Notes: generated by a model from the sequence alone, not told the origin. Shown: positions 4,101 to 41,779, numbered from the stretch's first letter. The stretch: DNA of 64,000 bases from Anaeromyxobacter sp. (GCA_046351695.1 JAXLYA010000004.1:171265-235264), one strand, 5' to 3'. Program-made: numbers and translations.

Positions 4101-4146
4101 CGGCGAGGGCGAGCGCGCCGAGGACGAGGATCCGGGTGCGGGTCAT
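1129..4146 (-). CDS. Secreted lipase/esterase-like alpha/beta-hydrolase lipoprotein (N-terminal region resembles the bacterial virulence-factor lipase N-terminal domain)
   Basis: The real start is MTRTRILVLGALALAGSVSGLGAC (lipobox) at 4146, inside the 1391-aa track ORF, preceded by a GAGGA SD. It carries a VFDPNAGAIPLPNDL motif, a GxSxG nucleophile elbow (GQSLGA) and FRHGFGDGR. Everything upstream of M4146 in that ORF is R/G-rich shadow sequence. Confidence 0.7.
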   Translation of the reverse strand: MTRTRILVLGALALAGSVSGLGACAPDVKQATSLHKVATVVFDPNAGAIPLPNDLARSALGLGGLPDGAQKELLQAFNAAGGFPNDQEVAITLDLVDQTIAANGAVTEGPVALDATSFTEDTVFVWGLTAAGAGIIPLETLTPADLVAGTKTSTLTLHRKGHGPWEPGLYYAFLRGGPYGVRTADGRAVYASTIFNLIAQGQDLTTEANLSLLKAQLGTYEAAYANAQALNQLIAGYKTAPAPGVPAPFTVADSRFPHQELAMLTTFQVAPRKTVVELDAARGLVPLPIDLLRHPGPTGKLTKVAACSLASGTLDAAGNCSSAAAAGFEALDGFGTTAPILAATSDLIDATTVTSDTVQLWDLSGTNPAKVDPSTYLTEPCEVTDSGLSTAIVLQPAGLSACDATSPFRTRPLRDATDYAVIVTTGVKDKAGKALGRGTVGNVLLFAHPVSVGGHSALLGIDDETAAGLEAMRLQLRPVVTAAGLSDAQVAMAYTFRTQTILSQALQLAALPYALPGLSAAPGAVTSFTPAQAYARYGVAATVPSDNLGEVLETSISTFNLLDPASGAFFANPANGSAESIPVLVAVPKATNPNLAACPGALSALKCAPMVVFRHGFGDGRADMLTVANGLAAKGLITVAIDAAKHGDRSLCNKGDVTISGFPICADHTTACTSPLPAGAQGDAKPPGTCGAVGYAVRPVSEACATNPAGCGWDGTHGIPIVSGNFLVSVNFFRTRDTLRQDAIDQSQLVRALAFVPTGPPPTTNPVFDHLAAGGVVIDPAKVRYLGQSLGALQGAMNLAVNPRLGAGTLNVGGGTIVDIFTTSPAFGPSTDELLTGLGISPGTAAYLQFLAVAKTILDPADPINFAGHLKSSPLPNLLANPNGSIAQSSKPVLAQAAFCDQTVPNPFTYLLSSVVGNTPLPSAPTFGQGTGDFQVFMTGAAAPDAAAFASCTGGFGSNPLTPWAVKHGFITNWADVLQTGKAQADAGAFLLDPTALPASVVVLP

Positions 4147-4154
4147 GGCGGTCC

Positions 4155-7127
4155 TCACTTGTCGAACGTCTGGGTGGCGACCGCGCCGGCCTGCGCGTGC
4201 GCGCCGTCGGCGTAGTCGAAGTAGGTGTTCTGGACCCAGTCCACGAGCAGGTCCGGCCCCGCGACGACGCCGTACGGCCCGTCGCGCTGCGGCCCGGGCA
4301 GCTGCATCCGGGTGGTCGGGCCGGCCGGATCCATGACCGAGACGTGGCGAACGTTCGCCGACGAGCCGAAGGCGAAGGAGGTGCCGCTCGCGGTGAGGCG
4401 CGGGTTGCCGACGTCGACCGTCAGCGCGCCGCCCGGGCGGGCGTACGGCCCGGCGACGTAGCCGGTCGTGACCGTGGGGAACTGGCTCGCGGCCGTGAAG
4501 GTGTGGTGCCGGCCCCAGCGCCAGTCGGTGCCCTCGGTGGCGAGGAGCGTGCGGTAGGCCGTGACGAGCGAGGTCACGACCTGCGCCGCGCAGGTGTGCG
4601 ACGCGACGGGCGCGCCGGTGTCCGGGTCGACGTCGTCGCAGAAGCTCGCCTCGTCGCCGGTGACGCCCGGCTCGAGCATGCGGAGCATGCCCTTCACGGC
4701 GCTCGACGAGCTCACCCCCAGCCCTGCCGCGCCGAGGTCGTCCGCGAAGACGCGGACGAGGAGGTCGCGCACGAAGGTGTGGAAGAGGAGGCACGCCGCC
4801 GAGTTCGCCGTGTTGGTGGTGTCGGGGTCGTTCGGCGAGAGGTCGGGGTCGATGCCGAGGAGGCCGGTCGGGCAGTCGTAGGCCTTCGTGTTCGCGCCCC
4901 AGGCGACGAGCATGGCGCGGGCCGCCTTGAAGTCGGGGCTGCCCGCCTCGGCCGCGTCGTAGCTCGCGTCCTTCAGGATCTCGGTGAAGGCCCGGCCGAG
5001 CGAGGAGACGTGGTCGGTCTGGATCGACTCGAGCTCCGCCTCGCCGATCTTGCCGCCGCCCGCCGCGAGCGCCTTCGTCATGCGCTCGGTGATGCGGGTC
5101 TGCCGGAAGCCGATCTCGTCCCAATCGAACGAGAGGTAGGGCGGGTAGGCGAAGACGTTGTTGTCCTTCGAGACGCCCACCGGGTCGGAGTTCGCCGTCA
5201 CGTAGAAGCCCCAGGTCGGGTTCTTCCCGTGCGGCACGTCGGCGTCGTCGAGGAAGCAGCTGCGCGGCGCGGCGACGCCCCCGCAGGCGGGGTCGGAGCC
5301 CCACTCCGCCGAGCCGTCGCCCGGGAGCGGGATCCAGGGCGGCTGGAGGTTGGCCGCGGCGGTCTTGCGGACGTCGGCGAAGTCACGCACCGGCAGGAGC
5401 GCGTGAGGGTCGTAGGCGATGTTCCCCGCGTCGTCGGCGAGCACGAAGTTCTGCGCGCCGGTCGCGTAGTCCTTGAGCGCCTCGATCGCCGCGTCGACGC
5501 TCGCGGCGGTCGCGAGGCCGAAGAACGCCTTCAGGTCCTGCGTCCAGCCCTCGTGGCCGGTCCAGCGCATCGAGACGGCGTGGCCACCCGCGTCTGGCGC
5601 CTGGATGATCGGGCCGTGGTGCGGGACGACGAAGACGACCGCGCCCTGGGCCGAGAGGAGCGGCGCGTTCGGCGGCCACGCGGTCGCCTCGTGGAGGAGG
5701 CCGTCGGGGCCGCGGACCTTGTACGACTGGGGCGCGGGGATGAGCGACACGGGGCCGCCCTTGAAGAGGACGCACGGGATCTGCGCGGACGGGCAGCTGC
5801 CCTGCGGCAGGAACTGCTCGCGGTAGAGATCCGTCACGTCGTAGCCGACGACGGTGACGCCCCAGCCGACGTGCTTGCCGCGCCCCACGAGCGCGCCCGG
5901 CGTGCCGGGGAACGAGCCGCCCACGATGTCCATGCCGTCGGCGGCGCGCCGGGAGGTCATCTGCGCGAGGTAGAAGTTGGGCGGGTAGGGCAGGGAGAGG
6001 TGCGGGTCGTTCGCGACCATCGCGTGACCGTTCGCGGAGTGGGCCGCGTCCACCACCCAGTTGTTGGAGCCGACCTCGCCCACCTCGGCGTGGAGCGCCT
6101 CGCGGAGCGCGCCGTGGCGGACGCCGAGCGGCCCGAGGCTCGCGCCCCAGGCGCCGAGCGCCGCGGCGTCCACCTGCGGCGCCGGCGCGGGCGCGGCGGC
6201 GGCCGGGGGTGCGACGAGCGTGTACGTGCGCGCCTGGACCGGCAGCTGCGCGCGGACCCAGGTCTTGAACTTGCCGCCGGTGCCGAAGGCGAGCACGAAC
6301 TTCCCGTAGTCGGCCTCGGCCCCGATGCTCTCGGAGAGCTGGAACTGCTGCAGGCGAGCGAGCCCGGTGACGTCGGCGAGCGTCCAGGCCGGGAGGTCCG
6401 CCGCCTTCACCGGCACGGGCAACTGCGCGTACTCGCCGGGGAGGTCGGCGTCGGTGAGCTCGCCGAGCCGCGCGTTGATGCCGTCGACGTAGGCCTGCAC
6501 CCGCGCCTTCGTGGCGGGGTCCATCGCGGTGACGAGCGCATCCTCGATGCGGGCGCCGTTGCGCATGGTGAAGAGGGTGCGGAGCTGCACGTCCTGCTCG
6601 AGCCCGAGCGGGCCCACGAGCTCGGAGAGCCGCCCGCGCGCCACGCGGCGGAGGAAGTCCATCTGGAAGAGCCGGTCGCGCGCGTGCAGGTAGCCCTGGA
6701 CGGCGAAGCAGTCGGTGTCGATCGCGCAGTCGACGTGCGGCACCTGCCAGGCGTCGTAGGTGACGGTGACCGCCGCGGAGAGCGACGCGATCTTCTTCGG
6801 GGTGAGCGCCTGGGCCGCGTAGCTGATGTGGACGGCCTGGCTGTGCTTGCCCGCGGTGGCGGTCACGGTCGCGGTCTGGCCGGCGCCCGCCACGGCGGGC
6901 GGCCGCCAGACGACGAACGGGCCCTTCGAGCCGGAGAGCGTCCCGGCGCCGGTGAGCGACCAGCTCACCTCGGCGCCGCCGGTGACCGTCGCGCTCAGGC
7001 TCACCGGCCCGGACGCGGTCACGTCGCCGGACGGCGTGACGGTGAGTGAGTCGGCGAGGTCGCCGGACTTGGCGCAGGCGAGGACGGCGGACGCGAGGGC
7101 ACACAGGACGACCAGCTTCGCGCGCAT
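4155..7127 (-). CDS. Penicillin/acyl-homoserine-lactone acylase family protein (peptidase S45, Ntn hydrolase) lipoprotein with an extra N-terminal Ig-like segment
   Basis: Signal/lipobox MRAKLVVLCALASAVLAC, a GYLHARDRLFQMDF motif, and the autoprocessing/nucleophile site GSNNWVV. A GGAGG SD precedes the ATG. The stop is 8 nt before the lipase start. Confidence 0.85.
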   Translation of the reverse strand: MRAKLVVLCALASAVLACAKSGDLADSLTVTPSGDVTASGPVSLSATVTGGAEVSWSLTGAGTLSGSKGPFVVWRPPAVAGAGQTATVTATAGKHSQAVHISYAAQALTPKKIASLSAAVTVTYDAWQVPHVDCAIDTDCFAVQGYLHARDRLFQMDFLRRVARGRLSELVGPLGLEQDVQLRTLFTMRNGARIEDALVTAMDPATKARVQAYVDGINARLGELTDADLPGEYAQLPVPVKAADLPAWTLADVTGLARLQQFQLSESIGAEADYGKFVLAFGTGGKFKTWVRAQLPVQARTYTLVAPPAAAAPAPAPQVDAAALGAWGASLGPLGVRHGALREALHAEVGEVGSNNWVVDAAHSANGHAMVANDPHLSLPYPPNFYLAQMTSRRAADGMDIVGGSFPGTPGALVGRGKHVGWGVTVVGYDVTDLYREQFLPQGSCPSAQIPCVLFKGGPVSLIPAPQSYKVRGPDGLLHEATAWPPNAPLLSAQGAVVFVVPHHGPIIQAPDAGGHAVSMRWTGHEGWTQDLKAFFGLATAASVDAAIEALKDYATGAQNFVLADDAGNIAYDPHALLPVRDFADVRKTAAANLQPPWIPLPGDGSAEWGSDPACGGVAAPRSCFLDDADVPHGKNPTWGFYVTANSDPVGVSKDNNVFAYPPYLSFDWDEIGFRQTRITERMTKALAAGGGKIGEAELESIQTDHVSSLGRAFTEILKDASYDAAEAGSPDFKAARAMLVAWGANTKAYDCPTGLLGIDPDLSPNDPDTTNTANSAACLLFHTFVRDLLVRVFADDLGAAGLGVSSSSAVKGMLRMLEPGVTGDEASFCDDVDPDTGAPVASHTCAAQVVTSLVTAYRTLLATEGTDWRWGRHHTFTAASQFPTVTTGYVAGPYARPGGALTVDVGNPRLTASGTSFAFGSSANVRHVSVMDPAGPTTRMQLPGPQRDGPYGVVAGPDLLVDWVQNTYFDYADGAHAQAGAVATQTFDK

Positions 7128-21142: not shown

Positions 21143-21403
21143 CTACCGCCGCCGGTCCTCTCTGAGGAGGTCGAGGCTGTTCACGGAGAGACCGAGCGGA
21201 GGCAGCTCCCGGAGCCGTCGCTTCGCTTCGGAGAACGGCCGGAGCGCAGGGCGGACCACGAGGCCTCGCTCAGCATCACCGGGAGGCACGACGCGAGCGA
21301 TCGGCAGGCCGCGCTCGGTGACGAGCAGGGAGTCACCGCGGCTCACGCCGCGAAGGTGGCCGGAGAGGTGGGCCCCGAGGTCCGCGACATCGACGCGCTT
21401 CAT
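21143..21403 (-). CDS. Phd/YefM (prevent-host-death) family type II antitoxin, no adjacent toxin gene
   Basis: MKRVDVADLGAHLSGHLRGVSRGDSLLVTERGLPIARVVPP is a typical Phd N-terminal fold. The C-terminal tail ...LDLLREDRRR resembles VapB-type antitoxins. Start taken at the internal ATG 21403. Confidence 0.6.
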   Translation of the reverse strand: MKRVDVADLGAHLSGHLRGVSRGDSLLVTERGLPIARVVPPGDAERGLVVRPALRPFSEAKRRLRELPPLGLSVNSLDLLREDRRR

Positions 21404-21460
21404 GAGCGCATCGTCCTTCTGCCTTCCGCTCGGAGTCAAGCCGGGGAGGACGCCCCTGGC

Positions 21461-22498
21461 CTACCCCAGCGCCGCCTTCAGCATCGCGTCGTTCTCGGCC
21501 GGCGTGCCGATCGAGATCCGGATGCAGCCCTCGAGCCCCGCGTAGTGATCCTGCCGGCGCACGAGGATGCCGGCGGCGAGGAACTTCTGGTACGCGGCCG
21601 CGGCGTCGGGCGTCCGCACGAGGAGGAAGTTGCCGGCGGACGGGTAGGGCTTCCACGTCGGGTGCCGCTCGAGCGCCGCGAGCACGCGGGCGCGTTCCGC
21701 GCGGATGCGCTCGACGAGCGGCTGGACGTAGCCGGGCGCCTCTAGCGCGGAGAGCAGGATCGCGGTCGTGTGCACCGGGATGCAGAACGGCGGGATGCAC
21801 GCCCGCACGACGGACGCCACGCGCTTCGAGCCGAGCAGGTAGCCCGCGCGGATGCCGCCGAGCGACCAGGACTTCGAGAAGGTCCGGAGGATCGCGACGT
21901 GCTCGTTCGCGCGCGCGAGCGGGCGAAAGTCGGTGCCGGCGAAGGCCTGGTACGCCTCGTCGACGACGAGGAGCCAGCCCCGCTCGGCGGCGCGCGCCGC
22001 GAGCCGCTCCACGTCGGCGGCGGCGAACATCGCGCCGGTGGGCGCGTGCGGGACCGGGAGGAAGCAGACGCCGGGCGGGCCGCCCATCTCCGCGAGGAGC
22101 CCCTCGAGCGGGAGCGTGAAGCCCGGGCCGAGCGGGAGGCCCTTCCACGGCGTGCCCGCCGCGGCGGCGCCGCCCTTGTAGTACGGGAACGCCGGCACCG
22201 TATCGAGCACGCTCCGCGCCGCCATCGCGAGCGCGAGGCAGAGCAGGTTCGAGCCGGGCGCGAGCACCACGCCCTCCTCCGGCCAGCCCTCGTGCTTCGC
22301 GAGCGCGGCGCGCACGTCCTCGGCGTGCAGCTCCGGGTAGCGGTTCCAGTCGAGGTGTCCGAGCCGCTCGAGCGCCTTCGCCTTCACGGCGGGCGGGAGG
22401 TCCTCGGGGCTCTCGTTCTGGTCGAGCTTGATGCGCGCGTCGCTCTTCGCGTACGGGTAGTCCGCGACGTTCGCGAGGTGGGGCTTGAAGGCGTCCAT
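21461..22498 (-). CDS. hisC: Histidinol-phosphate aminotransferase-like class II PLP aminotransferase
   Basis: Start MDAFKPHLANV at 22498. Motifs are KLDQNESP, VVDEAYQAF and the PLP-lysine motif TFSKSWSLGGIRAGY. The upstream 78 codons of the track ORF have poor GC3 and R/G-rich composition. Confidence 0.85.
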   Translation of the reverse strand: MDAFKPHLANVADYPYAKSDARIKLDQNESPEDLPPAVKAKALERLGHLDWNRYPELHAEDVRAALAKHEGWPEEGVVLAPGSNLLCLALAMAARSVLDTVPAFPYYKGGAAAAGTPWKGLPLGPGFTLPLEGLLAEMGGPPGVCFLPVPHAPTGAMFAAADVERLAARAAERGWLLVVDEAYQAFAGTDFRPLARANEHVAILRTFSKSWSLGGIRAGYLLGSKRVASVVRACIPPFCIPVHTTAILLSALEAPGYVQPLVERIRAERARVLAALERHPTWKPYPSAGNFLLVRTPDAAAAYQKFLAAGILVRRQDHYAGLEGCIRISIGTPAENDAMLKAALG

Positions 22499-22527
22499 CT
22501 TCGAGTCCTGCGTTCCCTGCCGTGTCG

Positions 22528-22710
22528 CTACGGCTCCAGCACCGCGTTCACCACCACCGCCGCGAGCAGCCCGACGACCGCCGGGCCCGAGCCGCCTCAG
22601 GCCCCGCAGCCGAGGGCGGGCACCGCGAAGGTGATCCCGGCCCCGGCGAGCCCGGCCGCGGCGGCCATCCAGCCGCGATGCCGCATGAGCCACTCGCGCA
22701 ACGGCGTCAT
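22528..22710 (-). CDS. Candidate small (60-codon) two-TM membrane protein with in-frame TGA in a C-x-x-U context (possible selenoprotein); as a plain ORF it would stop after 37 aa
   Basis: Not in the ORF track (under 60 aa to the TGA). It reads MTPLREWLMRHRGWMAAAAGLAGAGITFAVPALGCGA-TGA-GGSGPAVVGLLAAVVVNAVLEP-TAG. 58 of 59 sense codons end in G/C, including all 22 after the TGA. It lies immediately upstream of hisC on the same strand. Confidence 0.4.
22568..22587 (-). promoter_or_regulatory. SECIS-like hairpin downstream of the in-frame TGA
   Basis: mRNA positions +10 to +29 after the UGA read GGCCCGGC-GGUC-GUCGGGCU. That is an 8-bp stem (2 G.U pairs) with a GGUC tetraloop at +18..+21. The E. 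coli fdhF SECIS apical loop is GGUC at about +19..+22. Confidence 0.35.
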
Positions 22711-22730
22711 GTCCGGTACCTATCACCTCC

Positions 22731-23171
22731 ATGGCTTACCTGCTCGTCCTCTTCGCCCTCCTCGCCGGCGTCAGCCTGCCGGTGCAGGCCGGCGTCAACG
22801 CCGCCCTCGCGCGCGGCGTCGGCCGCCCGGAGTGGGCCGGCGTCGTCTCGTTCGCGGTGGGGCTCGTCGGCATCGCCGCCTACGCGCTCGTCTCCCGCGC
22901 GCGCGTCCCGACCACCGCCGAGCTCGCCGGCATCCCGGGGTGGGCCTGGACCGGCGGCCTCATCGGCGCGTTCTACGTGACGAGCGTCATCCTGCTCACG
23001 CCGCGGCTCGGGCTCGCGCTCACGATGGGCTTCGCGGTCGCCGGCCAGCTCGTCGGGGCGCTCGTGCTCGACCAGATCGGCGCGTTCGGCCTCGACGCGC
23101 GGCCGGTCACCCTGTCGCGCGCGGTCGGCGTGGTGCTGCTCGTCGTCTCCGTGCTGCTCATCCGCCGGTAG
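22731..23171 (+). CDS. DMT-superfamily small membrane transporter (YdcZ/DUF606-like)
   Basis: MAYLLVLFALLAGVSLPVQAGVNAAL...; five hydrophobic helices in about 146 aa, the typical DUF606 layout. Confidence 0.7.
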   Translation: MAYLLVLFALLAGVSLPVQAGVNAALARGVGRPEWAGVVSFAVGLVGIAAYALVSRARVPTTAELAGIPGWAWTGGLIGAFYVTSVILLTPRLGLALTMGFAVAGQLVGALVLDQIGAFGLDARPVTLSRAVGVVLLVVSVLLIRR

Positions 23172-23187
23172 CCGGCCCGAGCCGCCC

Positions 23188-23580
23188 GTGAGCCCCGTCC
23201 GCATCGCCGCCGTCGCGACCGTCACCGCCGCGCTCGTCCTCTATGGCATCGGCACGTGGCGGGAGCGTCGCGCCGGCCGCGCGACCGCCGGCGTGCGCGG
23301 GTTCCTCTCCGCCGGCCTCGCGTGCGACGTGCTCGCGACGCTGTTCATGATCGTGGCGACCGGCGGCCTCTCCCTCACGCTGCACGGCGTCCTCGGCTAC
23401 TCCGCGCTCGCGCTCATGACGGTGGACGTCGTCCTCCTCTGGCGGCACGCGCGCGCCCACGGCGACGCGCCGCTGCCCCAGGGGAAGCGCCGGTATGCGA
23501 CGCTCGCTTACGCGTACTGGGTCTTCGCCTACGTGGCGGGGGCGGCGCTGGTCGCGTCGCGGCACGCGGCGACCCGCTGA
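23188..23580 (+). CDS. Small integral membrane protein (HsmA/TIGR03987-like)
   Basis: GTG start; AALVLYGIGTWRER...GLACDVLATLFM...LHGVLGYSALALM; four predicted TM helices. Confidence 0.5.
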   Translation: MSPVRIAAVATVTAALVLYGIGTWRERRAGRATAGVRGFLSAGLACDVLATLFMIVATGGLSLTLHGVLGYSALALMTVDVVLLWRHARAHGDAPLPQGKRRYATLAYAYWVFAYVAGAALVASRHAATR

Positions 23581-23632
23581 GCCGGCGTTTCCGGAGGCCG
23601 GAGGTGCACCGGTCGTGAGAGACTCCGGGTGC

Positions 23633-24589
23633 ATGCGCTCCGTACTTTCTCGCCTCGGCGCCTGGCTGCGCCGCGCGCCCGCGGCAGCAGACGCACCTCC
23701 CGATGGCCCATCGGCGGCGGCGGTCGAGGCGAACGACCGCGGGCACGCGGCGCGCGATGCGGACGACGTCGAGGCCGCCGTCGTGGCCTATTCCGAGGCC
23801 GCGCGGCTCGCACCGGAGTGGCACGCGCCCTGGTTCAACCTGGGGGTGGTCACGAAGCAGTCCGGCCGCTGGGACGCGTGCCGCGACGCCTGCCGCCGCA
23901 CCCTCGCGCTCGAGCCGAGCGAGGGTGCGTGGTGGAACCTCGCCGTCGCCTGTACCGCGCTCGGCGACTGGGCCGGCGCCCGCGAAGGCTGGCGCGCGTG
24001 CGGCATCGAGGTGCCGGACGGTGACGGACCGCTCGAGATGCGGCTCGGGCTCGTGCCCATCCGCCTTGCGACGAACCGGGGGGAAGTGGTCTGGTGCGAT
24101 CGCATCGATCCCGCGCGCGCCGTCGTCCGCAACGTCCCGCTGCCGGAGAGCGGGCGACGGTACGGAGACCTCCTCCTGCACGACGGCGCACCCCACGGCT
24201 CCCGCATGCTGGGGGACCGCGAGGTCCCGGTCTTCGATGAGCTGACCCTGCTCGCCGCCTCGGGCCGTTCCACGTTCGTCGTGACGACGGAGCAGCCCAC
24301 GGCGGAGGATTCGGCCGCACTCGCAGCCGCGTTCGAGGCCGCCCAGCTCCCCGCGGAGGACTGGACCACCCAGCTCCGCTTCCTCTGCAAGGCGTGCAGC
24401 GAGGGGCGACAGCACGCGGAGGGGGAGCGCCACGAGCCGGACCCAGAATGGAAGACGAGCCACGATCTGGGCGTCGCGGCCGTGAGCGTGGAGCCCGTGC
24501 TCGCGGTGCTCTCGGCGTGGGCGGAGGGCGGGGCCGGACGCGGGTACGGGCCGGTCGAGCTCGCGCTCGAGGGCGGCGCGTCGGCCTGA
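23633..24589 (+). CDS. Hypothetical protein with N-terminal TPR-like repeats
   Basis: Start MRSVLSRLGAW at 23633. TPR-like AVVAYSEAARLAPEWHAPWFNLGVV...ACRRTLALEPSEGAWWNLAVA. I do not recognise the C-terminal domain. Confidence 0.55.
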   Translation: MRSVLSRLGAWLRRAPAAADAPPDGPSAAAVEANDRGHAARDADDVEAAVVAYSEAARLAPEWHAPWFNLGVVTKQSGRWDACRDACRRTLALEPSEGAWWNLAVACTALGDWAGAREGWRACGIEVPDGDGPLEMRLGLVPIRLATNRGEVVWCDRIDPARAVVRNVPLPESGRRYGDLLLHDGAPHGSRMLGDREVPVFDELTLLAASGRSTFVVTTEQPTAEDSAALAAAFEAAQLPAEDWTTQLRFLCKACSEGRQHAEGERHEPDPEWKTSHDLGVAAVSVEPVLAVLSAWAEGGAGRGYGPVELALEGGASA

Positions 24590-26123: not shown

Positions 26124-27929
26124 ATGCAGAGGAATCCGTTCCTGGCGCTCCTGCTCGTCCCGCTGATCGCGTGCAGTGGCGGTGGTGGCGGGGACGACGG
26201 CGGAGGTGGCGGAGGCGGCGGAGGGACGCCGGACCCCGGCCCCTCGAGCGGCGGCGGCGGCGCGAGCACCCAGGTCGGCTCGCTCGTCGCCAAGGCTGGC
26301 CCGAGCCAGGGCGCGGGCATGGCGGGCGCCGGCGGCGGGAGGGTGAACCTCTGGTCGATCGACGCGAGCCCGATCGTGCTGAAGACGGCGCCCGGCCTGC
26401 CCGCGAAGCCGGTGTGGAACCGGCCGGCCATCGCGCTCGGGGCGAACCCGCGGACGTTCGCCGGGACCTCGACGTACACGGCGAGCGGCAACGTGAAGGG
26501 AGACGACGGCACGAACCTGGCGACCGCGCTCTGGGTGAAGCCCGGCGCCACGTTGAAGGTGGAGCCTCCGTCCGCGCTCGGCGCCCTCCTCGTGAACGGG
26601 CCGATCGTCATCGAGGGGACGCTCTCGCTCGGCCGCGCCGCCGACGGCGCCCTGGACTCCGCCTCGCTCTTCGTCGGGGGCACGGTCGTCGCCCTCGCCC
26701 CGGCCGGGAAGATCCTCGCGGCCGGCGACGACGGCGGGGCCGGGGCGGGCGGGAACGGCGGCAGCGTGGCGCTCGGGGCGACCCAGGGCGTGTTCGTCTT
26801 CGGCACCGTCGACGCGAGCGGCGGGACCGGCGGCACGGCGGGGGGCAGCGGCGGGGTCGTGGTGGCAGGCGTCGGCCTCGTGCCGGTCACCGGGATCCCG
26901 GCGCCGACGGGCGGGACGGCGGTCTTCACCGGGCAGGTGACCGTCGCGGGCGGCGCGGGAGGCACCGGGCCGGGCGGAGCCGCGGGAGAGTTCCTGCTCG
27001 GGTTCGGCGGCGGGGGCGGCGGAGGCGGCGGCGTGTTCCGGGCGGAGCGCGGCGGAGGCGCCGCGCGGGCCGCGCGGGCGAGCTTTCCGGATGATCTCGA
27101 GGCCCACGTCTACGGCACCGTGCGCGCGAACGGCGGCTCCGGCAGCGCGGGCGGCAGCGGGGGCCTGATCCAGGCGTCCGGCGTGAAATGGACGGTCGCC
27201 GCCGGCACGCTCGACGTGTCGGGCGGGACGGGCAGCGGGTTCGGCCAGGGCGGGCCGGGCGGCGACATCGCCCTCGGCGGCTCCGGCGGCGAGGTCTGGG
27301 TGGAGGGGACCTGCCTGGCGCGCGGCGGCGACTCCGGCGTGAGCCAGGGCGCCCGCGGCGGCTCGGTCACCGTGGTTTGGGACGACAGCACCTCCCTGGC
27401 CGTAGGGCCCATCCACGTGTCGGCGAGCGTCGACGCGCGGGGCGGCGGCGGGGACCGCGGCGGGCCGGGCGGCGCCGTGAACCTCGAGGCGACCGGCGCC
27501 GTGACCGCCGTCGTGGACGGCGTGGAGCTCGGCGGCGCCCCCGGGGTGGGCGTGGGGCCGGGCGGGCCGGGCGGCGAGCTCGACCTCTACACGACGGACG
27601 GCGAAGCCTACGGGCCGATCACCGTCGGCGTCCCGATCCTCAACAGCGGCGGGAGCAGCACCGGCGGGAACGGCGGCGCGGGAGGTGGGGTCACCGTCGA
27701 GGGCAAGGCCATCTCGCTCGCCGCGATCACCGCGAACGGCGGCAACGCGGCGGTCGAGCTCGCGGGAGGCCCGGGCGGCCACGTCCGAGCCACGGGCCAC
27801 GGCGGGACCACCACCGCCACCGCCCCGATCTCGGTGAAGGGCGGCACGGGGACCCCGGCTGGCGTCGTCGGCACCGTGATCCTCGACGGGGTGGCGAAGC
27901 CGCTCGTGAACGGCGTCTACACGCCCTGA
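26124..27929 (+). CDS. Glycine-rich repetitive lipoprotein (predicted beta-helix/solenoid)
   Basis: Lipobox LIAC with a GGAGG SD, then a poly-G/D linker. At least 11 units follow, each a G-rich turn plus a short strand (GGTGGTAGGSGGVVV; GGSGSAGGSGGLIQA; GGPGGAVNLE; GGNGGAGGGVTVE; GGPGGHVRA ...). Confidence 0.6.
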   Translation: MQRNPFLALLLVPLIACSGGGGGDDGGGGGGGGGTPDPGPSSGGGGASTQVGSLVAKAGPSQGAGMAGAGGGRVNLWSIDASPIVLKTAPGLPAKPVWNRPAIALGANPRTFAGTSTYTASGNVKGDDGTNLATALWVKPGATLKVEPPSALGALLVNGPIVIEGTLSLGRAADGALDSASLFVGGTVVALAPAGKILAAGDDGGAGAGGNGGSVALGATQGVFVFGTVDASGGTGGTAGGSGGVVVAGVGLVPVTGIPAPTGGTAVFTGQVTVAGGAGGTGPGGAAGEFLLGFGGGGGGGGGVFRAERGGGAARAARASFPDDLEAHVYGTVRANGGSGSAGGSGGLIQASGVKWTVAAGTLDVSGGTGSGFGQGGPGGDIALGGSGGEVWVEGTCLARGGDSGVSQGARGGSVTVVWDDSTSLAVGPIHVSASVDARGGGGDRGGPGGAVNLEATGAVTAVVDGVELGGAPGVGVGPGGPGGELDLYTTDGEAYGPITVGVPILNSGGSSTGGNGGAGGGVTVEGKAISLAAITANGGNAAVELAGGPGGHVRATGHGGTTTATAPISVKGGTGTPAGVVGTVILDGVAKPLVNGVYTP

Positions 27930-38455: not shown

Positions 38456-40027
38456 TCAGCCGTGGGACTCCCCCGGCTCCGTCACCCAGGGCGCGAGGAA
38501 GAAGAGGAGCGCCACCGCGCCGTAGCCGGCGGCCCACGGCCAGGCGGGCCCCAGGGCGAGGGTGGTGTCCGCGCCGACGTAGGCGAAGCCGTGCATGAGG
38601 CCGGCGAGCGAGAGGACCGCGGCCGCGAGCATCCAGAGCCCCCCGCGCACGAAGCGCCGCTCGATGACCGCGACCGTCGCGGCGGCGAGGATCATCGAGG
38701 TGAAGATGAAGCCCTGCTCGAGGGCGAACGCGCCCTTGATCCAGGTGTCGGAGCGGAGGAACGCGTCCTCGACGCCCGCGGTGAACGGCGCCGGGCCCGC
38801 CGCTGCGGCGCGCACGCCTGCCTTCGCGAGCGTCGCGCCCCAGGCGCCGAGCGCCGGCAGGAGGCCCACCACCACCGCCGGCGCGTGCTCCTTCGGCACC
38901 GCCTGGAACGCCTGCGCCGCGATGACGAGGCCGATCCAGAGGACGATGGCCATGCCCGCGTCGATCGGGACCGCCCACGCGATGGTGCCCACCGTGCCGG
39001 TGAGCGCGATGACGGTCACGAAGGCGCCGTTCAGCACCGAGTAGCCGGAGCGCGCCCCGAGCGCCTTCCAGCCCGGGTGGCCGATGTAGATCGTGGTCGG
39101 GAAGGGCGAGCCGAAGAGCGCCGCCGCGAGGGAGCCCACGCCGTTCACGAAGAGCGACGGCGCCGTCTCGTAGGCGTCGCCCGCCGCCTCCGCCGACTCG
39201 ATGTTCTGGAGCGAGCCGACGACGTTGAAGAGCCCCATCGGCACGATCACCGACGCGTAGGTCGCGACGAGCCGCGGGTCGAGCGACGCGAGGAGGTCCC
39301 CGAGCACGGGGACGGGCAGCGCGAGCGCGGGCGGCGCGGGCGCGGCGCCGGAGGGGGCGAGCCCCGTGAGCCAGGCGAGCAGCGTGCCGAGCGCGACCGC
39401 GACGAGGCCACCGGGCACGCGCCCGCGGAAGCGCACGTGGCCGAAGTAGGTGAGGAGCACCACGCCGAGCGTGACGAGGCCGACCACCGGCCGCGCGAAG
39501 GTGCGGAACAGGAAGCCGAGCGAGATGAACCCGAGCGCGATGCCGGCGAGCGTGGAGAGGAGCGCCGCCCGCGGTGTCGCGCGGCGGATGCGCTCGGCCA
39601 CGAAGGCGCCGCCGCCCTCGATGACCGCGGAGCCCAGGCAGGCGAGGAGCCCGGCCTGCCACGCCGCGGTCGCCGGGTCCGGGTGCCCGGCGGCCTCGGC
39701 CGCGAGCTTCGCCGGGAGCATCACGAGGAAGACGTGGCCGAAGAGCGAGACGGTGTTGATGCCGTACGGCAGCGCGCAGACGTCCGCGCGCCCGGTGCGC
39801 GCCGCGAGCCGCCGCGCCTGCCACGCGTAGAAGAGGTTGCCGAGCAGGATCGACACCGCCGCGCCCGGCAGGATCCGCCCGTACACGAGCGCGGCCGGGA
39901 AGCCCAGCACGCCGCGGCAGAGCGCGTCGACGAGGAGGAGCTGGACGAGGTTGTCGAGGGCGAGCCCGAAGAAGCCGTCGAGGTCGCCCCGCACGAGGAG
40001 GGGGGGCCGGGTGGTGGTCGCGGACAC
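38456..40027 (-). CDS. NCS2/AzgA-type purine (adenine/guanine/hypoxanthine) permease
   Basis: DLDGFFGLALDNLVQLL..., about 13 hydrophobic segments, and PYGINTVSLF and TTIYIGHPGWKALGARSGYS motifs typical of the family. Confidence 0.75.
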   Translation of the reverse strand: MSATTTRPPLLVRGDLDGFFGLALDNLVQLLLVDALCRGVLGFPAALVYGRILPGAAVSILLGNLFYAWQARRLAARTGRADVCALPYGINTVSLFGHVFLVMLPAKLAAEAAGHPDPATAAWQAGLLACLGSAVIEGGGAFVAERIRRATPRAALLSTLAGIALGFISLGFLFRTFARPVVGLVTLGVVLLTYFGHVRFRGRVPGGLVAVALGTLLAWLTGLAPSGAAPAPPALALPVPVLGDLLASLDPRLVATYASVIVPMGLFNVVGSLQNIESAEAAGDAYETAPSLFVNGVGSLAAALFGSPFPTTIYIGHPGWKALGARSGYSVLNGAFVTVIALTGTVGTIAWAVPIDAGMAIVLWIGLVIAAQAFQAVPKEHAPAVVVGLLPALGAWGATLAKAGVRAAAAGPAPFTAGVEDAFLRSDTWIKGAFALEQGFIFTSMILAAATVAVIERRFVRGGLWMLAAAVLSLAGLMHGFAYVGADTTLALGPAWPWAAGYGAVALLFFLAPWVTEPGESHG

Positions 40028-40039
40028 GATGCCCCGATG

Positions 40040-40651
40040 TTACCCGAGCGCGCCGTCCGTCCGGCGGAACACCAGCAGCCGGTCGCCCTCCTCCGGCATC
40101 GGGACGTCGGCGGCGAGCACGAGCCCGCGCCGGGCGGCGGCGGCCACGAGGGCGTCGCCGTCGCGCACGCCGAGCGCGGGGTCGTGGGCGCGGAGCTTCC
40201 CGTCGATGCGCCTCAGGCGCTCGCCCATCGGCGCGCCGCCGCGGGTGAACGGGCCGTACACGGCGAGCGGCCCGCCCAGGGGCAGCACGCGGGCGGCGCC
40301 GGCCCAGAGCGCCTCCGCGCAGGCGGGCGGCGCGGCGTGGAGGACGTTGAGGCAGAGGAGCGCGTCGGCGCTGCGGGCGGTCCAGGCGGGTGCGAGGAGA
40401 TCGAGGTCGAGGGGCGCGAGCAGGTTCGGGAGGCGCGCCTCGGCGGACCACGCCCGGATCGAGGCGCGCGCCTCGGGGTCCGGATCGGAGGGCTGGAAGG
40501 TGAGGCGCGGGAAGGTCGCGGCGAGGTGCAGCGCGTGCTCGCCGGTGCCGCTGCCGAGCTCGAGCACGAGCCCGGTCCGGGGCAGGTGGTCCCGGAGCGC
40601 GGCGGCGATGGGCGCGCGGTTCGCGAGGGCGGCGGCGGCGGTGCGCTTCAC
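40040..40651 (-). CDS. DUF938-type SAM-dependent methyltransferase
   Basis: GTG start at 40651 (MKRTAAAALANRAPIAAAL). LELGSGTGEHALHLA (SAM motif I), LCLNVLHAAP. Sequence upstream in the 551-aa track ORF is shadow. Confidence 0.7.
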   Translation of the reverse strand: MKRTAAAALANRAPIAAALRDHLPRTGLVLELGSGTGEHALHLAATFPRLTFQPSDPDPEARASIRAWSAEARLPNLLAPLDLDLLAPAWTARSADALLCLNVLHAAPPACAEALWAGAARVLPLGGPLAVYGPFTRGGAPMGERLRRIDGKLRAHDPALGVRDGDALVAAAARRGLVLAADVPMPEEGDRLLVFRRTDGALG

Positions 40652-40678
40652 GGTGGGAAGGGCTACGCTGAACGAACC

Positions 40679-41779
40679 ATGCCCTCCGCCGCCCGCCTCG
40701 TCCACCGCGCCGCGCTCGTCGCCGCGCTCGCCGCCGCCCCGCTCGCGACGCGGGGCGCCCCGGACGTGGCGGGCGTCCGCCGCACCTTCCCGGTGGCCGA
40801 GGCCGGTGCGCTCTCGGTCGAGGTGCCGAGGGGCTGGAGGGTCCGCTCGGCCACGCTCGGGCCCGGCGCCCCGCCGTCGATCCGCCTCGACGCGCCGGGC
40901 GGCGGCGCGCTCTTCCTCGCCCCGGCCCCGGACCCGGAGGGCGAGGGGCTCGACGCGGCCCGGCTGTACGCGGACCTCGCCCGTCACGAGGCGATCGCCT
41001 CCGCGGGCGGCGAGCCCGACCTCGAGACCCTCACCGGTCCGGACGGCGCCGCGCTCGGGTACCTGTTCAGCGCCACGGATCGCGGCTACCGCCGGCCCGC
41101 GAAGGGCGAGGAACGCTGGCGGAACCTCGTCCGGGGGGCGGTCGTCGCGGGCCGCCTGGTCGTGAAGTTCACCTGGTTCGACGACGCGCCGGGCCCGGGC
41201 CGGGCGCGGGCGCTCGCGATCGTGCGGGGCGCGCGCCACGAGCCGGAGGCGGCGGCGCCGGCCCCGGCGCCGCCCGAAGGCGAGGGGAAGTTCGAGCTCA
41301 CCCCGGATCCCCGCGCGAGCACGGTGCCGCTCGCCGTGCAGGAGCCCGGCGGCGCGTTCACCGTCCTCGTCGACCTGCCCGGCTTCAAGCTCTACGCGCC
41401 GCGCGCCTCGCCGGACGGCGCCGGCACGCTCGTGCTCGGCGAGGATCCCGGGAGCGGCATCGTGGCGTCGGTCACCATCGGCCCCGCCGACGGCGCCGCC
41501 GACGCGCGCGCGTGCCGCGAGGCGAAGCTCGCGCGCCTCCGGAAGGCCGCGCCCGACCTCGGCGAGGTGCGCACCGCCGAGGCCGGGGAGACGGCGCGCC
41601 TCAGCTATGCGCTCCGGGAGCTCCGCGGCCGCGAGGTCCGCCAGGAGCACGCGCACACCTTCCTCCTCCGCGCCGGGCGGTGCGTCGACGTGCACGCCTC
41701 GAAGGCGGACCCCGCGCCGGGGGATGGGGCGACGCTCCAGAAGATCCTCGCGACCGCGCGTTTCGCGACCACGCTCTAG
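40679..41779 (+). CDS. Hypothetical secreted protein
   Basis: The ATG at 40679 gives the signal peptide MPSAARLVHRAALVAALAAAPLATRG. Normal composition and high GC3. It is the real tail of the 1510-aa shadow ORF. Confidence 0.55.
   Translation: MPSAARLVHRAALVAALAAAPLATRGAPDVAGVRRTFPVAEAGALSVEVPRGWRVRSATLGPGAPPSIRLDAPGGGALFLAPAPDPEGEGLDAARLYADLARHEAIASAGGEPDLETLTGPDGAALGYLFSATDRGYRRPAKGEERWRNLVRGAVVAGRLVVKFTWFDDAPGPGRARALAIVRGARHEPEAAAPAPAPPEGEGKFELTPDPRASTVPLAVQEPGGAFTVLVDLPGFKLYAPRASPDGAGTLVLGEDPGSGIVASVTIGPADGAADARACREAKLARLRKAAPDLGEVRTAEAGETARLSYALRELRGREVRQEHAHTFLLRAGRCVDVHASKADPAPGDGATLQKILATARFATTL

What the first reader, a model, noticed from the sequence alone, without database searches (positions are those of the whole stretch)
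22528..22710. Hidden 60-codon membrane ORF with in-frame TGA in a C-G-A-U context and a fdhF-like GGUC hairpin: candidate small selenoprotein
An ORF lies on the minus strand between the hisC-like gene and the divergent ydcZ-like gene. It reads MTPLREWLMRHRGWMAAAAGLAGAGITFAVPALGCGA, then TGA (22599-22597), then continues in the same frame for 22 more codons (GGSGPAVVGLLAAVVVNAVLEP) to TAG. All 22 post-TGA codons end in G or C, and 58 of 59 sense codons overall do. That is the coding signature of this genome and is unlikely for non-coding DNA here, so translation probably continues through the TGA. The TGA sits two residues after a Cys, giving a CxxU redox-type motif between two hydrophobic helices. 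Ten nt downstream of it the mRNA folds into an 8-bp stem with a GGUC tetraloop at +18..+21. This is close to the E. coli fdhF SECIS apical hairpin GGUUGCAGGUCUGCACC, whose GGUC loop is at about +19..+22. The other two frames on this strand have poor GC3 and R/G-rich translations.
Basis: partly seen in the sequence, partly recalled or inferred. Interest (0 to 1): 0.7.

Follow-up and report, generated by a model that had tools for sequence, protein, structure and literature searches.

The report
Small membrane selenoprotein gene, unannotated
A 60-codon gene for a tiny two-helix membrane protein, which gene finders cut short at an internal TGA, most likely reads that TGA as selenocysteine; it would be a new, very narrowly distributed selenoprotein family with no cysteine-containing relatives.

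Summary
The interpretation gained independent support from related sequences.

- **Organism.** The window comes from an Anaeromyxobacteraceae genome. Anaeromyxobacter dehalogenans is reported to have 11 selenoproteins, including SelD.
- **Sister lineage.** It differs at about 30% of synonymous sites in the flanking genes and 36-39% within the ORF. It keeps the same arrangement: ydcZ, a 20-nt spacer, the small ORF, then hisC.
- **TGA and frame.** The sister lineage has TGA at the same codon 38 and the same frame open behind it. The residues after the TGA are better conserved (17/22, pN/pS 0.34, like YdcZ) than those before it.
- **Substitutions.** All nine third-position changes after the TGA are G<->C. 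There are no indels.
- **Hairpin.** The 8-bp hairpin and its GGUC loop are kept, with a G-C to C-G swap. The loop sits one nucleotide from its position in the E. coli fdhF SECIS.

A decaying pseudogene and a chance frame are therefore excluded.

Still open:
- The sel genes of this genome could not be inspected.
- No Cys homologue or other relative exists among billions of predicted proteins.
- Close relatives lack the ORF altogether.
- Only two lineages carry the comparison.

Best reading: a new orphan CxxU membrane selenoprotein (confidence about 0.72).

The parts
22528..22710 (-). Whole small gene: ATG, 37 codons, UGA (Sec38), 22 codons, TAG. It predicts a 60-residue protein, MTPLREWLMRHRGWMAAAAGLAGAGITFAVPALGCGAUGGSGPAVVGLLAAVVVNAVLEP.
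   Evidence: Gene callers report only the first 37 codons (P0001). A homologue with the same layout occurs in a sister lineage.
22600..22710 (-). N-terminal part: a basic N-terminus (conserved LREWL..HRG), hydrophobic helix 1, then LGCG ending at Cys35 (22608-22606).
   Evidence: Within the window's own lineage there are 8 synonymous third-position changes and 1 A->V change. Between lineages, 21/37 residues are identical, the changes are mostly hydrophobic swaps, and pN/pS is 0.74.
22597..22599 (-). In-frame UGA, the proposed selenocysteine codon 38 of a C-x-x-U motif.
   Evidence: TGA is present in every haplotype of both lineages: 13 contigs of the window type, 10 of the L094 type, and L112.
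22531..22596 (-). C-terminal part read after the UGA: a GGSGP turn and hydrophobic helix 2 (AVVGLLAAVVVNAVLEP).
   Evidence: Compared with L094: 17/22 residues identical, pS 0.39, pN 0.13, differences by codon position 3:2:9, all nine third-position changes G<->C, no indel. GC3 is 22/22 here and 36/38 in L094.
22568..22587 (-). SECIS-like hairpin: 8-bp stem (two G-U pairs) with tetraloop GGUC (22579-22576). The loop starts 17 nt after the UGA.
   Evidence: for the fold. The hairpin energy is -13.9 kcal/mol, in the top 2% of hairpins behind TGAs in the window. The loop is invariant, and the third pair from the loop is G-C in the window type and C-G in the L094 type. It is the only such hairpin behind any of 837 TGAs.
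22588..22606 (-). Small 6-bp helix that holds the UGA in its loop and directly abuts the SECIS-like hairpin.
   Evidence: It appears in the consensus fold. One pair changes on both sides, G-C to C-G, between codons 36 and 40. This is weaker evidence than for the main hairpin.
22711..22730 (.). 20-nt spacer between the start codons of the small gene and the divergent ydcZ. It holds the only A/T-rich island (GTGATAGGTACC) and a GGAGG 15 nt before the ATG.
   Evidence: It is conserved in both lineages and also in relatives that lack the small gene. A role as promoter is inferred only. The consensus promoter scan found nothing.
21461..22498 (-). hisC-like histidinol-phosphate aminotransferase, 29 nt downstream of the small gene's TAG and probably co-transcribed.
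   Evidence: TIGR01141 E 4e-71 and PF00155. The same order is found in all related loci.
22731..23171 (+). Divergent ydcZ-like gene for a DMT-family membrane protein.
   Evidence: PF04657 E 1e-38. It is always the divergent neighbour, with the same 20-nt spacing.

Best explanation
The locus encodes a 60-residue membrane protein whose codon 38, UGA, is decoded as selenocysteine.

Mechanism, inferred from the established bacterial pathway: while the ribosome approaches the UGA, the hairpin 10-29 nt downstream presents its GGUC loop to the elongation factor SelB. SelB carries Sec-tRNA(Sec) and delivers it to the UGA, so translation continues for 22 more codons.

Predicted product: a helical hairpin with a basic N-terminus in the cytoplasm, helix 1 (about residues 14-33), a short outward-facing turn G-C-G-A-U-G-G-S-G-P, and helix 2 (about residues 44-58). 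The Cys35/Sec38 pair at the outer membrane face would form a selenenyl-sulfide redox centre or a binding site for a soft metal or metalloid. It may work with the neighbouring YdcZ transporter.

Shown here: the ORF, the conserved TGA, coding constraint on both sides of it, and the conserved hairpin.
Inferred: Sec rather than another amino acid at the UGA, the membrane topology, and the chemistry.
For: (a) Conserved TGA. TGA sits at the same codon in two lineages, while synonymous sites have diverged by about 0.27-0.31 in the flanking genes and 0.36-0.39 in the ORF.

(b) In-frame coding behind the TGA:
- 17/22 residues are identical, against 10-11/21 in the other frames.
- pN/pS is 0.34, equal to YdcZ (0.35).
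- Random placement of the 14 differences gives P = 0.016.
- 9 of the 14 differences are at third positions, and all nine are G<->C. The five differences at first and second positions are all transitions.
- There is no indel, whereas the true intergenic stretch after the TAG is unalignable even in the 96%-identical L004.

(c) No restart. No start codon lies just behind the TGA, and conservation begins at codon 40. Translation must therefore arrive from upstream.

(d) The hairpin meets all four criteria of the published bSECIS model (PMC13188914): a 4-nt loop, an 8-bp stem, GG at the start of the loop, 17 nt spacing, and -13.9 kcal/mol.

(e) Its loop GGUC is the loop of the E. coli fdhF SECIS, which carries the SelB contacts G23 and U24 (PMC8659212; sequence verified). 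It is offset by one nucleotide. Such a hairpin is unique among 837 TGAs in the window.

(f) All six differences between the lineages across the two helices either fall in unpaired positions or form two compensatory G-C/C-G swaps.

(g) The segment LGCGxUxGSGPAVVGLLAAVV is the best conserved part of the protein.

(h) The genus Anaeromyxobacter is selenoprotein-rich: 11 selenoproteins including SelD in A. dehalogenans (PMC1794560).
Against: - selA, selB, selC and selD could not be looked for in this genome. The window has none.
- No Cys-containing homologue and no other relative exists. [quoted passage not shown]
- The gene is missing in close relatives. L108 (HisC 86.5%) and L106 have only 60-82 nt between hisC and ydcZ. 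It is therefore dispensable or young.
- Only two independent lineages support the comparison. A codon-aware null makes the covariation only modestly significant (about 0.03-0.07), because the stem pairs third positions with third positions and third-position changes here are almost always G<->C.
- Beyond the hairpin (codons 48-60) the protein-level test gives only P = 0.09.
- The E. coli bulged U17 is absent.
- There is no well-spaced Shine-Dalgarno sequence; the GGAGG lies 15 nt from the ATG.
- One haplotype has V54E in helix 2 (L086).
- There is no match to any Rfam family.
Confidence: 0.72

Rival explanations
1. The gene is only the 37-codon ORF, encoding a single-helix membrane or secreted peptide that ends at UGA. 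The conserved 66 nt behind it are a non-coding RNA or DNA element, for example a stabilising or regulatory hairpin in the leader of hisC, or the hisC promoter.
For: - Gene callers report a 37-residue product.
- The first 37 codons show purifying selection within the lineage: 8 synonymous changes against 1 conservative change.
- Within the window's lineage the 66 nt show no synonymous change at all. This fits nucleotide-level rather than codon-level constraint, but is not significant (expected about 2.5 changes, P about 0.08).
- Part of the amino-acid conservation (codons 39-47) coincides with the hairpin.
- The test beyond the hairpin gives only P = 0.09.
Against: - Behind the TGA, A/T bases sit only at codon positions 1 and 2 (0 of 13 at position 3).
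- Third-position changes are exclusively G<->C, while other positions change by transitions.
- pN/pS equals that of YdcZ.
- The frame stays open in both lineages, and no indel occurs although the adjacent true intergenic DNA has them.
- No promoter-like or terminator-like site was found.
- A hydrophobic helix is kept at protein level.
Confidence: 0.15
2. The UGA is read through, but not as selenocysteine. A near-cognate tRNA (Trp, Cys or Arg) would occasionally insert an ordinary amino acid. The result would be a short major product and a longer minor one.
For: The evidence for translation past the UGA does not itself say which amino acid is inserted. The Sec machinery was not verified in this genome.
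Against: - The hairpin has the position and the GGUC loop of a SelB-binding element, and it is conserved with a compensatory change.
- The UGA lies in a CxxU arrangement, typical of selenoproteins.
- Relatives in the genus use Sec.
- From general knowledge, programmed near-cognate readthrough is rare in bacteria.
Confidence: 0.06
3. The ORF is a dying remnant: a once longer gene (for instance a lipoprotein precursor, since ALGC resembles a lipobox) that acquired a nonsense TGA. The downstream frame would merely not yet have decayed.
For: - The ORF is absent from close relatives.
- It has no homologues.
- The N-terminal part evolves fast between lineages (pN/pS 0.74).
- The sequence n-region, hydrophobic region, then A-L-G-C, followed by a G/S-rich stretch, looks like a lipoprotein signal peptide (read from the sequence, not tested with a tool).
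Against: - The TGA predates the split of two lineages that differ at about 30% of synonymous sites in the flanking genes (36-39% in the ORF).
- Since that split the downstream 22 codons kept their frame, acquired no stop or indel, and stayed under pN/pS 0.34, tighter than the part before the TGA.
- Proline at position -4 breaks the usual lipobox rule.
Confidence: 0.04
4. The ORF is a classical his leader peptide with transcription attenuation that controls hisC.
For: It lies directly upstream of hisC on the same strand, and a stable hairpin follows it.
Against: - There is a single His codon and no His run.
- There is no terminator-like hairpin with a U tract.
- Relatives express hisC from a 60-82 nt leader without it.
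Confidence: 0.01

Closest known systems
Bacterial selenoprotein genes with an intragenic SECIS; reference case E. coli fdhF
   Same: - An in-frame UGA is followed by a hairpin inside the coding region.
- The apical loop GGUC is identical to the fdhF loop, which carries the SelB contacts G23 and U24.
- The loop lies 17 nt after the UGA here and 18 nt in fdhF.
- Coding sequence is conserved on both sides of the UGA.
   Different: - The loop is a tight tetraloop closed by C-G, rather than the 6-nt loop AGGUCU.
- There is no bulged U17.
- The stem starts 9 nt after the UGA instead of 11 nt.
- The protein is a 60-residue membrane hairpin, not a molybdoenzyme.
[quoted passage not shown]
   Same: It is a short and/or membrane-embedded protein. 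Sec is paired with Cys (CxxU) at a position suited to bind soft metals or exchange electrons at the membrane (list in PMC13188914).
   Different: There is no sequence match to any Pfam or NCBIfam model at E up to 1-10 for either lineage's protein. It is not a member of those families.
Selenoproteins truncated by gene callers at the Sec codon (the route by which Haft and colleagues found new families)
   Same: Database entries end exactly at the UGA: 37-residue P0001, P0002 and P0003. Homology continues in frame behind it (bioRxiv 10.1101/2022.07.06.499078).
   Different: Those families were recognised through full-length Cys-containing homologues. Here none exists, and the family comprises two close lineages only.

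Membership tests
Bacterial selenoprotein gene (Sec-UGA recoding) | An in-frame UGA conserved at the same codon in homologues | tested here: met
   TGA is at codon 38 in all window-type contigs, all L094-type contigs and L112.
Bacterial selenoprotein gene (Sec-UGA recoding) | Protein-coding conservation continues in the same frame downstream of the UGA | tested here: met
   17/22 residues identical, pN/pS 0.34, differences by codon position 3:2:9, no stop or indel, simulation P = 0.016. Only two lineages are available.
Bacterial selenoprotein gene (Sec-UGA recoding) | bSECIS model: apical loop of 3-9 nt, stem of 4-16 bp, G in the first two loop positions, 16-37 nt from the UGA to the loop, MFE <= -7.5 kcal/mol | tested here: met
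   Loop GGUC, 8 bp, 17 nt, -13.9 kcal/mol (criteria from PMC13188914). The model alone is passed by 22% of TGAs in the window.
Bacterial selenoprotein gene (Sec-UGA recoding) | The SECIS structure is conserved, with covariation among homologues | tested here: met
   100% of cells are paired in both lineages. There is one compensatory G-C/C-G swap in each of two helices, and the loop is invariant. The statistical weight is modest, with two lineages only.
Bacterial selenoprotein gene (Sec-UGA recoding) | selA, selB, selC (tRNA-Sec) and selD are present in the same genome | not testable with these tools
A. dehalogenans has the trait (PMC1794560).
Bacterial selenoprotein gene (Sec-UGA recoding) | Homologues exist with Cys aligned to the UGA | tested here: not met
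   No Cys form was found in 5.8 billion clustered proteins, 1.84 billion representatives, or a pattern scan of metagenome contigs that allowed TGN at the position. This feature is usual for selenoproteins but is not a strict requirement.
Bacterial selenoprotein gene (Sec-UGA recoding) | Selenium is incorporated into the product (75Se labelling or mass spectrometry) | not testable with these tools
   This needs an experiment.
E. coli fdhF-type SECIS | G and U (G23, U24) in the apical loop | tested here: met
   The loop is G21 G22 U23 C24, counting the U of UGA as 1, against G22 G23 U24 C25 in fdhF.
E. coli fdhF-type SECIS | Bulged U17 on the 5' side of the upper stem, and a mini-hairpin exactly 11 nt from the UGA | tested here: not met
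   The 8-bp stem is continuous, without a bulge, and starts 9 nt after the UGA. It resembles the fdhF element but is not a strict copy.
Known Pfam/NCBIfam selenoprotein families (e.g. PF02411 MerT, NF041239, NF041197, NF041211) | A match to the family profile above its threshold | tested here: not met
   There is no relevant hit at E up to 1-10 for the 60-residue or the 76-residue protein with U written as C.
his operon leader peptide / attenuator | A run of His codons, and a terminator hairpin with a U tract | tested here: not met
   There is one His codon and no terminator-like site.

The most novel reading that the evidence does not exclude
The gene may be a young, lineage-specific ('orphan') selenoprotein that never had a cysteine ancestor. 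It is present in one small clade of Anaeromyxobacteraceae and absent from the short hisC leader of its nearest relatives. In that case a Sec codon and its SECIS arose together with the coding sequence. Because the ORF ends 14-29 nt before the hisC start codon, selenium-dependent reading of the UGA could also couple hisC translation to selenium supply.
Probability: 0.12. Interest if true: 0.8.

Novelty: new member of a known kind. Interest (0 to 1): 0.6.

Why it matters
If confirmed, this adds a selenoprotein family that every annotation pipeline misses. Databases hold only a 37-residue stump.

It would be one of the smallest membrane selenoproteins, with a Cys-x-x-Sec pair placed at the outer face of the membrane.

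It has no Cys homologues and is restricted to a few close lineages. It is therefore a rare test case for two questions:
- how a Sec codon and its SECIS originate;
- whether homology-based (Cys/Sec pair) searches systematically overlook small, young selenoproteins.

It also shows that the composition of the frame behind a stop codon can flag recoding in high-GC genomes.

Tried and rejected
- **Family scans.** Pfam and NCBIfam scans of both proteins found nothing.
- **RNA scans.** Rfam was run at gathering threshold on the window and at E up to 10 on the locus, and found nothing. ARAGORN found no tRNA-Sec in the window or in 27 loci.
- **Synteny through HisC.** One scan of one genome per species returned only L004 (same species group) with the ORF. 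Relatives with HisC 58-75% identical have other genes or nothing upstream.
- **Word-indexed protein searches.** The 60-residue sequence and a 4-sequence profile returned only the two 37-residue stumps.
- **Metagenome contigs.** The peptide scan gave no relative. A degenerate DNA pattern for C-G-x-(TGN)-x-G-x-G-P-A-V-V-G gave two chance matches in 60% GC DNA.
- **Representative search.** It was run with the 37-residue stump instead, and this found the decisive homologue P0003.
- **Hairpin stability.** It is not better than shuffles (z = +0.6), so stability was dropped as an argument.
- **Loose bSECIS pass.** It is uninformative, since 22% of TGAs pass.
- **Other candidates.** A search for in-frame TGAs with coding signature on both sides gave only shadow frames or adjacent genes sharing a frame. 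Other GGUC hairpins in the window and in relatives' loci have no suitably spaced TGA, apart from one antisense chance match at 57787.
- **Paralogue or parent gene.** None was found in the window.
- **Opposite-strand frame.** The long + strand frame sharing third positions (21770..23191) overlaps both hisC and ydcZ over their full lengths. I judged it a shadow ORF.
- **Promoter and terminator scan.** It returned nothing.

Full report
**1. The observation**

On the minus strand, 22710..22528 reads ATG, 37 sense codons, TGA (22599-22597), 22 further sense codons and TAG. The translation is MTPLREWLMRHRGWMAAAAGLAGAGITFAVPALGCGA*GGSGPAVVGLLAAVVVNAVLEP*.

- 58 of 59 sense codons end in G or C, including all 22 behind the TGA.
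- Genes predicted in this window have third-position GC of 0.9-1.0 against about 0.5 at second positions. The ORF shows the same pattern on both sides of the TGA.
- Behind the TGA, the 13 A/T bases fall 11 at codon position 2, 2 at position 1 and none at position 3.
- The ORF lies between a hisC-like aminotransferase (22498..21461, TIGR01141, PF00155) and a divergent ydcZ-like DMT membrane protein (22731..23171, PF04657).
- Its ATG is only 20 nt from the ydcZ ATG.

The hairpin is real. RNAfold and RNAalifold both give an 8-bp stem (22587-22580 with 22575-22568) closed by the loop GGUC at +18..+21 after the TGA.

**2. Is it more than chance?**

- Stability is not an argument. Shuffled sequence of this composition folds equally well (z = +0.6).
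- The loose published bSECIS model is not an argument either. 22% of all 837 TGA triplets and 13 of 32 genuine stop TGAs in the window pass it.
- The specific feature is rare. GGUC tetraloops on stems of at least 7 bp occur five times in 128 kb. This is the only TGA with one at +15..+23.
- The hairpin energy (-13.9 kcal/mol) is in the top 2% of hairpins behind TGAs.
- For 22 of 22 G/C-ending codons, a binomial estimate at 74% GC gives about 0.001. An upper bound of 3.5% comes from my crude 'intergenic' set, which still contains some coding sequence.

**3. Organism and first searches**

HisC-based retrieval places the window in Anaeromyxobacteraceae. The closest genome record is the MAG JASGHJ010000001.1, with HisC 96% identical.

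- The 60-residue protein (Sec written as Cys) matches no Pfam or NCBIfam model.
- The word-indexed search of 5.8 billion proteins found only the 37-residue stump that gene callers produce (P0001).
- Fourteen contigs of the same species group all keep the TGA.
- Their few differences are eight synonymous third-position changes plus one A->V before the TGA, and one V->E behind it.
- In L004 the 30 nt between the TAG and the hisC start are diverged and carry an indel, while the 66 nt behind the TGA are identical.
- More distant family members (HisC 58-75%) have no such ORF.

**4. The decisive comparison**

An exhaustive phmmer search with the 37-residue stump found P0003 (58% identical, also 37 residues, E 1e-5). 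Its contigs (L094-L103, and L112 found through YdcZ) have the same arrangement: ydcZ, 20 nt, small ORF, aminotransferase. HisC is 89% and YdcZ 83% identical to the window's.

There the stop is again TGA at codon 38 and the frame runs on...ILGCGT*SGSGPAVVGLLAAVVTNAAFDPGPSRAEAPEGRTDEGA*. The nucleotide alignment is gap-free from the ATG to codon 60.

| Region (window vs L094) | pS | pN | pN/pS |
|---|---|---|---|
| Small ORF, behind the TGA | 0.39 | 0.13 | 0.34 |
| Small ORF, before the TGA | 0.36 | 0.26 | 0.74 |
| ydcZ | 0.31 | 0.11 | 0.35 |
| hisC | 0.27 | 0.07 | 0.25 |

Behind the TGA:
- 17 of 22 residues are identical. Over the 21 codons compared in every frame, the coding frame scores 16 and the other two 10-11.
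- 9 of 14 nucleotide differences are at third positions.
- All nine of those are G<->C, whereas the five at positions 1 and 2 are transitions.
- Random placement of the 14 differences reaches the observed protein identity in 1.6% of trials. For the 13 codons beyond the hairpin alone the figure is 8.7%.

The region behind the TGA has therefore been maintained as coding sequence, in frame with the upstream ORF, since before the two lineages split. No start codon is available at its beginning. A chance frame and a decaying nonsense allele are both excluded.

**5. The hairpin in the comparison**

Both lineages keep the 8-bp stem and the GGUC loop.
- The third pair from the loop is G-C in the window and C-G in the sister lineage (codons 43 and 46, both synonymous).
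- A second small helix holds the UGA in its loop and also has one G-C/C-G swap (codons 36 and 40).
- All six differences in the 39 nt spanning the two helices are either unpaired or compensatory.

I temper this. The stems pair third positions with third positions, and third-position changes here are nearly always G<->C. A codon-aware estimate of the covariation is only about 0.03-0.07, and there are just two lineages.

**6. Fit to known SECIS elements**

The published bacterial model requires:
- a 3-9 nt loop;
- a 4-16 bp stem;
- G in the first two loop positions;
- 16-37 nt between the UGA and the loop;
- MFE <= -7.5 kcal/mol (PMC13188914).

All are met. The E. coli element is defined by a mini-hairpin 11 nt after the UGA, a bulged U17, and G23/U24 in the loop (PMC8659212). 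Here the G-U of the loop is present one nucleotide closer to the UGA. There is no bulged U, and the stem starts after 9 nt. It works like a SECIS and resembles fdhF, but it is not a strict copy.

**7. Sec machinery**

The window and fetched loci contain no sel gene or tRNA-Sec. The rest of the genome could not be reached. Anaeromyxobacter dehalogenans is listed with 11 selenoproteins: FdhA x3, SelD, peroxiredoxin x3, proline reductase, thioredoxin x2 and DsbA-like (PMC1794560). The trait therefore exists in the genus. Its presence in this lineage is inferred.

**8. The product**

Hydropathy shows two hydrophobic segments in both lineages flanking the turn G-C-G-x-U-x-G-S-G-P. The basic N-terminus (R5, R10, H11, R12) suggests an N-in topology, which would put the Cys35/Sec38 pair at the outer membrane face. 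That is inference from the positive-inside rule.

The best conserved stretch of the protein is LGCGxUxGSGPAVVGLLAAVV. The sister lineage carries a further 16-residue acidic tail that varies within the lineage. CxxU is a common redox motif of selenoproteins. A redox or metal(loid)-binding role, possibly with YdcZ, is a hypothesis only.

**9. Distribution and origin**

- No further member and no Cys form was found.
- Two close relatives keep the divergent hisC/ydcZ pair and the conserved spacer motif but have only 60-82 nt between the genes (L108, HisC 86.5%; L106).
- L108 reads like the first six codons of the ORF joined to its last three. This suggests a deletion between GAG repeats, or conversely the site of an insertion.
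- A. oryzae and L008 have an unrelated 100-residue membrane gene there.

The gene is thus young or easily lost. Which of the two remains unresolved.

**10. Weaknesses**

- Only two lineages.
- No Cys homologue.
- Machinery untested.
- No well-spaced Shine-Dalgarno sequence. The GGAGG lies 15 nt upstream; a leaderless transcript from the conserved TAGGTA motif is conceivable but untested, and the consensus scan found no promoter.
- One V54E variant.
- No Rfam support.

**11. Verdict**

It is the best explanation (about 0.72).

| Rival | Confidence |
|---|---|
| 37-residue peptide plus a non-coding conserved element | 0.15 |
| Non-Sec readthrough | 0.06 |
| Pseudogene remnant | 0.04 |
| his leader peptide | 0.01 |

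It is a new member of a known kind: a new, tiny, orphan selenoprotein family using ordinary bacterial Sec recoding.

Noticed in passing
L108:1441-1500 and L106:1137-1218 (relatives); corresponds to window 22499-22730: Close relatives keep the divergent hisC/ydcZ pair and the spacer motif but have only 60-82 nt between the genes. L108 looks like codons 1-6 of the small ORF fused to codons 59-61, with GAG at both junctions. This is either a deletion or the empty site of an insertion.
   Followed up: partly
window 22711-22730: The 20-nt spacer between the two divergent start codons holds the only A/T-rich island of the region (GTGATAGGTACC). It is conserved in all lineages, including those without the small ORF. 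TAGGTA ends 6 nt before the ATG, so the small gene (and hisC in the short forms) might be transcribed as a leaderless or near-leaderless mRNA. The consensus promoter scan found nothing.
   Followed up: partly
L112:9754-10000 (JGI 3300003888 contig, 36 kb): This is a third haplotype of the sister lineage. The gene caller reported no gene at all in the 247-nt gap, yet the full 76-codon TGA-containing ORF and the hairpin are intact. The family is therefore under-represented even as 37-residue stumps.
   Followed up: yes
window 23188-24589 versus L001:1095-1259 / L084: A haplotype with identical hisC, small ORF and ydcZ lacks most of the HsmA-family gene (TIGR03987) and the TPR gene. In the window these lie between ydcZ and the ArsR/AHSA1 pair. 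This is a strain-level indel of roughly 1.3 kb.
   Followed up: partly
window 57763-57787, minus strand: This is the second TGA in the window with a GGUC hairpin (6 bp) at SECIS-like spacing (21 nt). It lies antisense inside the gene 56197-58161 (+), so I judged it a chance match.
   Followed up: partly
window 40040-41695, minus strand: This predicted 551-residue ORF has unusual composition (GC at codon position 1 0.91, position 3 only 0.88). It may be a low-complexity Gly/Ala/Pro-rich protein or a miscalled frame. I did not scan it.
   Followed up: no
window 21143-21439, minus strand: A 98-residue ORF directly downstream of hisC has lower third-position GC (0.82) than its neighbours and no Pfam hit. 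An 86-residue gene is called at the same place in related contigs.
   Followed up: no
window 1129-4158, 38456-40027, 56197-58161, 26319-27929: Four large, well-supported ORFs (1009, 523, 654 and 536 residues) have no Pfam match. The first three were scanned at E <= 1e-5 and 26319-27929 at E <= 1e-3.
   Followed up: no
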